This document shows positions 41,429 through 41,748 of a stretch of DNA of 64,000 nt, piece by piece. The notes under the pieces were generated by a model. The model saw only the letters and a program-made list of their open reading frames with translations, was not told where the DNA came from and did not search any database. Made by a program: the position numbers and the translations under genes. Source of the stretch: Octopus sinensis (taxonomy: Eukaryota). The stretch's first letter is position 1, and each line of letters opens with the position of its first letter. The stretch is from assembly GCF_006345805.1 (NCBI RefSeq), contig NC_043006.1, forward strand, positions 100,626,001-100,690,000, read 5' to 3'.

Positions 41429-41748
41429 GAAATATTAAAATTACTAAGTCTCTCTAAAAGAGAACAACGGCAGCGTTCCCGGAAAATATTAGTTATCGCC
41501 ATACTAATATGGCATTCTTATAAAAATAAGAATAAAGCTGACCGCTTATTAGCTCCATGAGGCCATCGCCTTAAGTTAGCTATTTGATACACAAACTGTA
41601 TCCATATAACCTTTGAACAAGGGAGGTCAGTCGCTCCACACTACTTGGCCGGCAGCTACAGACGCATTTCGGGGTATTGCCCCTTTTCAATGCAGCGTAG
41701 CCAAACCAGTAGGTGTCGCTTCCCACAATCTCTGTTCAAAGGTTATAT
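41425..41748 (-). mobile_element. Short PLE-like piece in (TA)n with internal 16-bp inverted repeat and hammerhead motif
   Basis: atataacctttgaaca (about 41604-41619) / tgttcaaaggttatat (41733-41748) bracket the motif. Confidence 0.55.
41656..41695 (-). ncRNA. Type-I hammerhead motif with U3-A8 covariant core
   Basis: Minus: CTGCA TTGAAAA GGGG CAATA CCCC GAAA TGC GTC TGTAG; stem I extends outward. Confidence 0.65.

What the first reader, a model, noticed from the sequence alone, without database searches (positions are those of the whole stretch)
41641..41712. Hammerhead with compensatory U3-A8 pair (UUGAAAA core) and extended stem I
Seen (minus): CTACTGGTTTGGCTACGCTGCA TTGAAAA GGGG CAATA CCCC GAAA TGC GTC TGTAGCTGCCGGCCAAGTAG. 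Established: C3 and G8 form a tertiary Watson-Crick pair in the active fold, so a double change to U3-A8 is compensatory. The same core recurs in the unrelated 16292 family and nearly (TTGGAAA) at 58005. Repeated covariation argues for selection on catalysis (inference). The motif lies within a 16-bp inverted repeat in a 320-bp non-coding unit between (TA)n tracts.
Basis: partly seen in the sequence, partly recalled or inferred. Interest (0 to 1): 0.72.

Follow-up and report, generated by a model that had tools for sequence, protein, structure and literature searches.

The report
Dead copy of variant-hammerhead retrozyme
This stretch is one lone, slightly damaged copy of a very abundant 363-base animal jumping repeat whose units carry a hammerhead-shaped motif, predicted to be self-cutting, with an already published swapped core pair (U3-A8); it is a sound but fairly ordinary example, and cutting has not been tested.

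Summary
It fits a type I hammerhead: helix I 6 bp plus a distal extension, helix II 4 bp, helix III 1 bp with a 4-nt loop, all core letters present, and C3-G8 replaced by U3-A8.

It is not a lone curiosity. It is a solo, 5'-truncated copy (window 41423-41742) of a 363-bp repeat. That repeat has at least 1241 identical cores in this 2.7-Gb animal genome. It lies in tandem and head-to-head arrays inserted into (TA)n, the footprint of Penelope-like elements.

Related families in the genome keep all 12 fixed core letters, vary only at N7, and show compensatory changes in every helix. One homologous family has C3-G8, so the 3-8 covariation is real.

The window copy carries a private C>T that spoils the palindromic helix III loop and favours a misfold, so it is probably inactive.

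U3-A8 hammerheads (2014), animal retrozymes (2020) and their Penelope link are already published. This scan also found the same family earlier on other DNA. No Rfam match and no RNA evidence were obtained.

Verdict: new member of a known kind.

The parts
41423..41742 (-). Solo copy of the 363-bp retrozyme unit, unit positions q1-q320 (q = 41742 - coordinate + 1). It lacks the last 43 nt of a full unit.
   Evidence: BLAST of the natural full unit L002:1501-1863 gives 99.4% identity over q1-320. It is the only copy in L001 and the window.
41641..41712 (-). Hammerhead domain with the extended, bulged helix I.
41691..41696 (-). Helix I, proximal 5' strand GCUGCA (positions 2.6-2.1).
   Evidence: Pairs with 41655-41660.
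41684..41690 (-). Core strand U3 U4 G5 A6 A7 A8 A9.
   Evidence: U3 and A8 are present in 50 of 51 distinct copies.
41671..41683 (-). Helix II hairpin GGGG CAAUA CCCC (G10.1-C11.1).
41667..41670 (-). G12 A13 A14 A15.1.
   Evidence: Invariant between families.
41662..41666 (-). Loop 3 (UGCG here, CGCG in the family majority) plus U16.1. With A15.1 the family reads the palindrome ACGCGU. Position 41666 is a private C>T.
41661..41661 (-). C17. The predicted cleavage lies between 41661 and 41660 (q82|q83).
   Evidence: Inferred from the hammerhead numbering. Not shown.
41655..41660 (-). Helix I, proximal 3' strand UGUAGC (positions 1.1-1.6).
41744..41774 (.). (TA)n tract at the 5' side of the copy (target microsatellite).
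41374..41422 (.). (TA)n tract abutting the 3' end (q320) of the copy.

Best explanation
The stretch is a solo, 5'-truncated and point-mutated copy of a 363-nt non-LTR retrozyme, each unit of which carries a type I hammerhead motif with a U3-A8 core pair that is predicted, but not shown, to self-cleave.

Shown:
- The motif, its family, the array anatomy and the covariation between families.

Inferred mechanism:
- Tandem units are transcribed.
- Two neighbouring hammerheads pair through the palindromic helix III loop (ACGCGU) to form an active dimer.
- Each cuts after C17 (q82).
- The 363-nt monomers, which fold into a highly paired structure, are likely ligated into circles.
- A Penelope-like element's reverse transcriptase and GIY-YIG endonuclease likely copies multimeric or circular RNA into (TA)n microsatellites. 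Priming would occur at two TA-rich template sites (q247-260 and q315-322). This would leave 5'-truncated tandem and head-to-head arrays.

The window copy has one hammerhead only. Its C>T change in loop 3 weakens the dimer helix and favours a misfold. It is therefore most likely an inactive end product.
For: Motif geometry:
- It matches what PMC4209133 describes for canonical metazoan type I hammerheads: helix I 6 bp, helix II 4 bp, helix III 1-2 bp capped by a small palindromic loop.

Family size:
- 1241 exact 24-mer cores in the genome, 0 in the reversed control.
- Copies are 94-100% identical, in tandem arrays of period about 363 bp.

Conservation:
- Between representatives of 4 subfamilies, 0 of 12 fixed core positions vary against 33 of 103 other columns (one-sided Fisher p = 0.013). 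N7 takes A, G and U.

Covariation:
- On 51 distinct copies, 92.7% of cells pair against at most 57.3% when partners are slid.
- On 9 representatives of families E, D, B2, B1, C and A plus the window copy, 98.4% pair against at most 50.5% slid.
- In that set 8 of 14 pairs show changes on both sides, against 0-1 when slid. These include 3-8 (UA 7, CG 2), 10.1-11.1 (GC, GU, AU, UA) and the mirror positions of loop 3 (UA, AU, GC).

Homology with a C3-G8 family:
- Family E shares the 3' module with this family. It aligns with family D at 70.7% over 164 nt that include the hammerhead.
- 9 of 9 E copies read CUGAUGA.

Genome sample (1.6 Mb):
- 38 descriptor hits against 7 in the reversed control.
- 28 of the 38 have a Watson-Crick 3-8 pair. 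U3G8 has 1 hit and C3A8 has 0.

Folding:
- The MFE of the majority 72-nt domain is the hammerhead fold.
- The homodimer scores -60.5 kcal/mol against 2 x -27.2 kcal/mol, with intermolecular ACGCGU pairing.
- The 363-nt monomer folds at -122.9 kcal/mol, z = -6.2, and keeps helices I and II.

Insertion anatomy (21 elements, 33 outer 3' ends):
- 18 ends lie at q315-322 and 15 at q247-260.
- 24 of 33 abut a TA-rich flank, against a background of 2.4%.
- 5' ends are variable, inverted arms are common, and one element has an 11-bp target duplication.
- This matches the PLE features in PMC8557442.
Against: - No Rfam hammerhead model matches. This holds at gathering score over the window and at E up to 10 on the window copy or on a majority copy.
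- Self-cleavage is untested. The 2014 paper found only low in vitro activity for the PLE minimal hammerhead it assayed.
- Insertion 5' ends do not pile up at the predicted cleavage site q83. Only about 2 of some 35 inner or outer 5' ends fall near it.
- Within the young family, single changes at 3 or 8 are never compensated: non-U at position 3 in 20 copies, non-A at position 8 in 3, C3-G8 in 0. Copies therefore decay neutrally, and selection acts at most on the source copies.
- The representatives in alignment A2 were picked from copies that already passed my descriptor, which inflates the paired percentage.
- No autonomous partner element was identified.
Confidence: 0.75

Rival explanations
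1. The motif descends from a hammerhead but no longer cuts. On this reading the U3-A8 core is catalytically poor, and the conserved letters and helices are kept because the hairpin serves another role, such as recognition by the reverse transcriptase or stability of the RNA.
For: There is no cleavage footprint at insertion 5' ends and no Rfam match. PLE minimal hammerheads cut poorly in vitro (PMC4209133). Multi-unit arrays show that much template RNA was uncut or re-joined.
Against: The conservation pattern is the hammerhead's own. All 12 fixed core letters are kept, and the one free position, N7, varies. The 3-8 pair switches as a pair between homologous families. Loop 3 stays palindromic through three different sequences. 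This is what a dimeric active ribozyme needs and is hard to motivate otherwise.
Confidence: 0.12
2. The resemblance is chance. On this reading it is an ordinary imperfect hairpin of a satellite-like repeat that happens to contain UUGAAAA and GAAA.
For: The heptamer alone is at chance frequency. A loose core pattern gives 10 window matches against 6.6 expected. No Rfam model scores it. The window copy's own MFE is a plain rod.
Against: The full descriptor gives 2 window hits against 0 in the control, and 38 against 7 in the 1.6-Mb sample. Five related families that are only 70-82% alike elsewhere keep the core and compensate in all helices. The rod-like MFE is caused by the private C>T change; the majority copy folds as a hammerhead.
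Confidence: 0.04
3. The element spreads as DNA, not through RNA. On this reading it is a foldback or hairpin-type transposon, or a satellite expanding by unequal crossover, and the hammerhead is irrelevant to its spread.
For: Head-to-head inverted arms and tandem arrays resemble foldback elements and satellites.
Against: Arms have fixed outer (3') ends at two template positions and variable inner (5') ends. Single arms also occur with one fixed and one ragged end. There is a strong (TA)n target bias and an 11-bp target duplication. This is the published footprint of target-primed reverse transcription by PLEs (PMC8557442).
Confidence: 0.08

Closest known systems
U3-A8 hammerheads in pLTRs of Cercyon Penelope-like elements of Schistosoma mansoni (Cervera and De la Pena 2014, PMC4209133; passages read)
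   Same: Same core covariation (U3-A8 instead of C3-G8), type I topology, association with Penelope-type retroelements, and a design that needs a dimer.
   Different: Those are minimal motifs without a helix III loop, highly heterogeneous and mostly single. This one has the canonical metazoan build (6-bp helix I, 4-bp helix II, 1 bp plus a 4-nt palindromic loop). It sits in a homogeneous tandem retrozyme of a different phylum.
Metazoan non-LTR retrozymes (Cervera and De la Pena 2020, PMC7229834; abstract and sections 13-14 read), e.g. mussel 350-390-bp repeats
   Same: Tandem repeats of 150-450 bp, each with a type I hammerhead. GC is below 50% (41% here). The monomer RNA is highly self-paired. 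PLEs with atypical hammerheads coexist in the same genome.
   Different: The published examples, as far as read, have the C3-G8 core and shown circRNA expression. Here the core is U3-A8 and expression could not be tested. The two discrete TA-rich 3' termini and the (TA)n targeting are not described in the sections read.
Penelope-like elements, especially Naiads (Craig et al. [quoted passage not shown]
   Same: 5' truncation, partial tandems, an adjacent inverted 5'-truncated copy, and (TA)n as preferred target. Cephalopods are listed as Naiad hosts.
   Different: This element has no ORF. No autonomous element sharing its 3' module was looked for or found here. The preprint treats vertebrates only.
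Rfam Hammerhead_1 (RF00163)
   Same: Same topology and 11 of 13 core letters.
   Different: The model does not score this motif at all. It does score 52 canonical PLE-type hammerheads elsewhere in this genome at E up to 1.

Membership tests
Hammerhead ribozyme, type I | Core letters U4 G5 A6 N7 A9, G12 A13 A14, A15.1-U16.1 pair, H17 not G (consensus as written in PMC7151607) | tested here: met
   All are present in the window copy. They are invariant between subfamilies, while N7 varies.
Hammerhead ribozyme, type I | C3 and G8 (tertiary Watson-Crick pair) | tested here: not met
   The letters are U3 and A8, so the literal consensus is not met but a Watson-Crick pair is kept. This variant is published as natural (PMC4209133). 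The homologous family E has C3-G8.
Hammerhead ribozyme, type I | Three helices around the core, with helix I open | tested here: met
   Helix I and helix II pair in 92.7% of cells and 98.4%, with compensatory changes. Helix III is 1 bp plus a palindromic loop, so it is complete only in a dimer.
Hammerhead ribozyme, type I | Score at or above the Rfam gathering threshold (RF00163 or clan members) | tested here: not met
   There is no match at gathering score, nor at E up to 10 on 501 bases and 131 bases.
Hammerhead ribozyme, type I | Site-specific self-cleavage after H17 | not testable with these tools
   No bench assay is available. No run on record as RNA holds the stretch and no raw reads were served.
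Hammerhead ribozyme, type I | Loop 1 / loop 2 tertiary contacts | not tested
   An internal loop (UAC/U) follows the 6-bp helix I, and loop 2 is CAAUA. No 3D modelling was done.
Metazoan non-LTR retrozyme | Tandem repeats of about 150-450 bp, each unit with a type I hammerhead | tested here: met
   The period is about 363 bp, with arrays of up to 10 units. The window copy itself is solo.
Metazoan non-LTR retrozyme | GC below 50%, no coding capacity, highly self-paired monomer | tested here: met
   GC is 41%. No ORF of 60 aa or more overlaps the copy. The monomer MFE has z = -6.2.
Metazoan non-LTR retrozyme | Expressed as linear and circular RNA of unit length | not testable with these tools
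   Only contigs of runs guessed to be RNA were available. Contigs cannot tell circles from tandem DNA.
Non-autonomous passenger of Penelope-like elements | 5' truncation, partial tandems, inverted 5'-truncated copy, microsatellite target bias | tested here: met
   set against the description in PMC8557442.
Non-autonomous passenger of Penelope-like elements | Sequence shared with the 3' end or pLTR of an autonomous PLE of the same genome | not tested
   A 3' module (q289-344) is shared among retrozyme families A, D and E. No element bearing a reverse-transcriptase gene was examined.

The most novel reading that the evidence does not exclude
A cephalopod-type genome holds a superfamily of (TA)n-targeting retrozymes that share one 3' module. 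Within it the hammerhead's tertiary 3-8 pair switched from C-G to U-A on a homologous backbone. Helix I, helix II and the dimer-forming palindrome of helix III co-varied as well. The U3-A8 lineages then amplified to thousands of copies. If so, this is a natural record that 3-8 pairing and dimeric helix III are selected in vivo. The shared 3' module with its two TA-rich priming sites would be the handle by which a Naiad-like Penelope element copies circular RNA.
Probability: 0.45. Interest if true: 0.45.

Novelty: new member of a known kind. Interest (0 to 1): 0.3.

Why it matters
For this window it matters little. The copy is a worn, solo insertion of a known kind of element with a known core variant.

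For the genome it is a tidy natural data set.
- Homologous retrozyme families carry either C3-G8 or U3-A8.
- Three different palindromic helix III loops occur (CUAG, CAUG, CGCG).
- Insertion ends are fixed at TA-rich template sites.

This gives bench workers ready-made natural pairs for testing the 3-8 pair and the dimer model. It also points to a short 3' module as the likely handle for the still unproven Penelope-retrozyme partnership.

Tried and rejected
- **Rfam:** no family at gathering score in the window. Nothing hammerhead-like at E up to 10 around the motif or on a majority copy.
read on both strands and scanned with a relaxed descriptor. No hammerhead. The 16400-16446 stretch is a plain palindromic hairpin inside a longer inverted repeat.
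- **RNA evidence:** no RNA holder listed. The 8 runs laid are contigs, 4 of them only guessed to be RNA. They show presence in 4 organism labels and read the majority letter at 41666, but they say nothing about transcription, ends or circles.
- **Cleavage footprint at 5' ends of insertions:** none seen.
- **Within-family 3/8 counts:** uninformative about selection, because the family is young.
- **Pattern with a leading N:** the tool ignored the N, so position 3 of family E was read from loci instead.
- **Literature on activity of U3-A8 mutants:** my searches found no open paper with rates. The work of Przybilski and Hammann (2007) is recalled only, not seen.
- **Octopus or cephalopod hammerheads or retrozymes in print:** searches found none. 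They returned only passing mentions in PMC8557442 and one twister paper.
- **Supplements:** the supplements of the papers cited here were not opened. They may list U3-A8 or mollusc examples that I did not see.
- **Autonomous partner element:** not searched for.

Full report
**1. Observation**

The 30-letter core is unique in the window, against 0 in 100 shuffles.

I wrote a type I hammerhead descriptor. It requires:
- the core N3-UGA-N7-N8-A
- a helix II hairpin of at least 4 bp
- GAAA, then 0-12 letters, then U and a non-G
- helix I of at least 4-5 bp

The descriptor finds the motif at 41655-41696(-). Helix I is 6 bp (GCUGCA/UGUAGC, one G.U). Helix II is 4 bp with loop CAAUA. Helix III is A15.1-U16.1 closing a 4-nt loop. 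The cleavage nucleotide is C17 at 41661.

The window gives 2 descriptor hits and its reversed control 0. Helix I continues, after a small internal loop, into an imperfect bulged distal helix.

No Rfam family matches. This holds at gathering score over the window and at E up to 10 on 501 bases around the motif.

**2.

- TTGAAAA occurs 25 times in the window, against 22.2 expected.
- The 16292-16450 and 58005 stretches were read. They give no hammerhead even with both helices relaxed to 3 bp.
- The 16400-16446 stretch is a plain palindromic hairpin, which explains why TTGAAAA appears on both strands there.
- The descriptor did find a different second motif in the window, at 49278-49327(+), with a G3-C8 core. 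It is listed under things noticed in passing.

**3. What the stretch belongs to**

The window is part of a 2.72-Gb, 13,516-contig animal assembly. Earlier notes of this scan call it octopus-like; I did not test that.

The 313 bases between the TA tracts match at least 183 scored places, out of 862 first-look candidates, at 94-100% identity. An exact 24-mer covering the core and helix II occurs 1241 times, against 0 in the reversed control.

Copies lie in tandem arrays of period about 363 bp, up to 10 units long. They often form two arms head to head.

In arrays the spacer between units is not (TA)n. It is a 43-nt segment ending in AAATAAAA, so the full unit is 363 bp (L002:1501-1863).

The window copy covers unit positions q1-320 only, at 41423-41742. 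It is the only copy nearby. No ORF of 60 aa or more overlaps it.

**4. Insertion anatomy**

I fetched 20 further loci that looked like single hits and analysed them with the window copy. The 21 elements have 33 outer 3' ends.
- 18 ends lie at q315-322 and 15 at q247-260.
- Both sites are TA-rich in the template.
- 24 of 33 ends abut a flank with at least 70% TA steps, against 2.4% of background 20-mers.
- Inner and single-arm 5' ends are scattered across the unit.
- One element outside a TA tract has an 11-bp target duplication (L070).

High 5' truncation, partial tandems, an adjacent inverted 5'-truncated copy and a preference for (TA)n are what Craig et al. 2021 describe for Penelope-like elements, and the (TA)n preference for Naiads in particular. 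That paper lists Octopus spp. among Naiad hosts (PMC8557442, passages read).

The window copy has the q320 type of 3' end.

5' ends do not pile up at the predicted cleavage site. The genome therefore gives no footprint of cutting. Multi-unit arrays imply a multimeric or circular template; this is an inference.

**5. The window copy is atypical in one letter**

Of 78 genomic copies in the first 30 loci, 50 read GAAACGCGUC and only the window copy reads GAAAUGCGUC. Counting overlapping loci, 87 of 117 full-length motifs are identical to the majority form. All 8 public runs laid read the majority letter at 41666.

With A15.1 and U16.1 the majority reads ACGCGU, a perfect 6-nt palindrome.

Folding results:
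- The majority 72-nt domain has the hammerhead fold as its MFE (-27.2 kcal/mol; the pure hammerhead structure is -26.1 kcal/mol).
- Its homodimer (-60.5 kcal/mol, against 2 x -27.2 kcal/mol) uses intermolecular ACGCGU pairing.
- The window copy's MFE (-29.0 kcal/mol) is a rod that pairs UGCAUU with AAUGCG. This buries U3, U4 and part of GAAA.
- Its own dimer helix is worth -3.9 kcal/mol, against -7.5 kcal/mol for the majority.

As a solo unit with a 1-bp helix III, this copy is predicted not to cut.

**6. Is the hammerhead real at family level?**

Within the young family A there is little variation.
- Genome-wide, position 3 is non-U in 20 copies (A 13, C 6, G 1), all with A8.
- Position 8 is non-A in 3 copies.
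- C3-G8 occurs in none.

This shows neutral decay of inserted copies. It says nothing about selection.

More diverged relatives are informative. Each family was first met in, or checked against, the evenly spaced 1.6-Mb genome sample.

| Family | Relation to family A | Hammerhead (helix I 5' / core / helix II + loop 2 / GAAA / loop 3 / UC / helix I 3') |
|---|---|---|
| B1 | 82% identical over q2-256 | as A in helix I / UUGAGAA / GGGG CAACAA CCCU / GAAA / CAUG / UC / as A |
| B2 | subfamily of B | as A in the 5' strand / UUGAUAA / AGGG CAACAA CCCU / GAAA / CAUG / UC / UGCAGA |
| C | subfamily | as A in helix I / UUGAUAA / GGGG CAACAA CCCU / GAAA / CGUCG / UC / as A |
| D | 78% over q226-348 | UCCACA / UUGAUAA / RGGG CAAAUA CCCY / GAAA / CUAG / UC / UGUGGA |
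| E | shares the 3' module q289-344 at 80% | UCCAGA / CUGAUGA / YGAG CAAAGA CUCA / GAAA / CUAG / UC / UCUGGA |

Family E aligns with family D at 70.7% over 164 nt that run through the hammerhead. All 9 of 9 E copies read CUGAUGA, that is C3-G8.

Conservation. Between representatives of A, B1, B2 and C, 0 of 12 fixed core positions vary, against 33 of 103 other columns (one-sided Fisher p = 0.013). N7, the one free core position, takes A, G and U.

Pairing on 51 distinct copies of A, B and C. The hammerhead pairs hold in 92.7% of cells, against at most 57.3% when partners are slid. There are double changes at two distal helix I pairs and GC/GU/AU at 10.1-11.1.

Pairing on nine natural representatives of E, D, B2, B1, C and A plus the window copy:
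- 98.4% of cells pair, against at most 50.5% when slid.
- 8 of 14 pairs changed on both sides, against 0-1 when slid.
- The changed pairs are four of six helix I pairs, two of four helix II pairs, the 3-8 pair (UA 7, CG 2) and the mirror positions of loop 3 (UA 4, AU 2, GC 2).
- Caveat: these representatives were chosen among copies that pass the descriptor, so the paired percentage is inflated. The pattern of which letters differ is not affected.

The three palindromic loops (CUAG, CAUG, CGCG) only make sense as an intermolecular helix. This is the dimer model for animal type I hammerheads set out in PMC4209133.

**7.

I took 160 stretches of 10 kb at fixed intervals along contigs C1-C5. With helix I at least 4 bp, the descriptor finds 38 motifs, against 7 in the reversed control.

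| N3-N8 | Hits |
|---|---|
| CG | 13 |
| UA | 7 |
| GC | 6 |
| AG | 4 |
| AU | 2 |
| AA | 2 |
| UG | 1 |
| UC | 1 |
| GA | 1 |
| GU | 1 |
| CA | 0 |

The control has one GC hit and no CG, UA or AU.

Inspection of the hits:
- Three of the four AG hits are overlapping matches in a GAT-rich stretch. The fourth is a decayed family E copy.
- Two of the seven UA hits are AT-rich and may be chance.
- One UA hit is subfamily B.
- Three UA hits share a UAUUC/GAAUA helix I.
- One UA hit has an ACAUGU helix III.
- All six GC hits belong to one family.

So Watson-Crick 3-8 pairs dominate and the mismatched intermediates are rare. The number of independent families is small.

**8. Whole-unit RNA**

A natural monomer running from cleavage site to cleavage site (L006:1732-2094, minus strand, 363 nt) folds at -122.9 kcal/mol. 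Shuffles average -89.3 kcal/mol, giving z = -6.2. The MFE contains helix I and helix II of the hammerhead. The unit is 41% GC.

These are the properties listed for animal non-LTR retrozymes: 150-450-bp tandem units with a type I hammerhead, GC below 50%, highly self-paired circRNAs, and mussel units of 350-390 bp (PMC7229834, sections 13-14 read).

The same genome also has canonical PLE-type hammerheads. RF00163 gives 52 hits at E up to 1, of which 8 are over the cut-off. Many of those I read are followed by AATAAA.

**9. Expression**

No listed holder is on record as RNA. All runs served are contigs, so nothing can be said about transcription, ends or circles.

Laying 8 runs shows the family in four organism labels. 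No listed difference falls in the core columns. One contig 'goes back' across the unit boundary, as expected of tandem DNA or circles alike.

**10. Comparison with the known, and novelty**

- Natural U3-A8 hammerheads were reported in 2014, with about 1,300 hits in S. mansoni (PMC4209133).
- Animal retrozymes were reported in 2020 (PMC7229834).
- Their derivation from PLEs is argued in a 2026 preprint on vertebrates (10.64898/2026.07.22.740005, abstract and passages read).
- My searches found no paper on cephalopod hammerheads or retrozymes.
- Earlier agents of this scan described this same 362-363-bp family, its solo copies and its Penelope-type footprint on other windows of this genome. I re-derived those points here from my own calls.

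- the private, probably inactivating change of the window copy
- the two discrete TA-rich 3' termini
- the homologous C3-G8 family E and the intermediate family D
- the three-way palindrome covariation of helix III

**Verdict**

This is a real, well-supported hammerhead motif of a published variant type, in a known kind of element. This copy is a dead end. Self-cleavage remains untested.

Noticed in passing
window 49278-49327 (+): A second descriptor-positive type I hammerhead, with a G3-C8 core: uuugucaGUGAACAggucgc..gcgacGAAAauauUUugacaaa. Helix I is 7 bp, helix II is 5 bp, and the helix III loop is the palindrome AAUAUU. The same family gave 6 GC hits and one GA variant in the 1.6-Mb genome sample. 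An earlier scan note says a swapped G-C core was not found in print.
   Followed up: partly
window 16308-16541: A long inverted repeat (about 45-bp arms at 16308-16352 and 16498-16541) encloses a second perfect palindrome at 16400-16446. It looks like a foldback or MITE-like structure.
   Followed up: partly
L075:3561-3900 (-), loci L269-L278: Retrozyme family E has units of about 350 bp and 2979 first-look candidates. It carries a canonical CUGAUGA hammerhead with a CUAG helix III loop. It shares a roughly 56-nt 3' module with the U3-A8 families.
   Followed up: partly
L153:9255-9640, loci L261-L268: Retrozyme family D is older (copies 83-90% alike; 2489 first-look candidates). Its U3-A8 core resembles family B, while its helix III and part of helix I resemble family E. 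It looks like an intermediate between the two.
   Followed up: partly
L031-L050 (own genome): Canonical PLE-type minimal hammerheads (GUAC CUGAAGA GACCC AGAAC GGGUC GAAAC AUGU GUC GUAC), many followed within a few bases by AATAAA. Two long variants carry about 60 extra nt inside helix II (L038, L047).
   Followed up: no
L255/L243/L244 (C1:73.47 Mb array): One array of subfamily B carries GAAACAUCUC, a non-palindromic loop 3. It appears in 9 listed rows of overlapping loci, apparently one local variant copied within the array.
   Followed up: no
L060:1141-1445: One family A copy ends at q315 against a (CT)n tract instead of (TA)n. The microsatellite preference is therefore not absolute.
   Followed up: no
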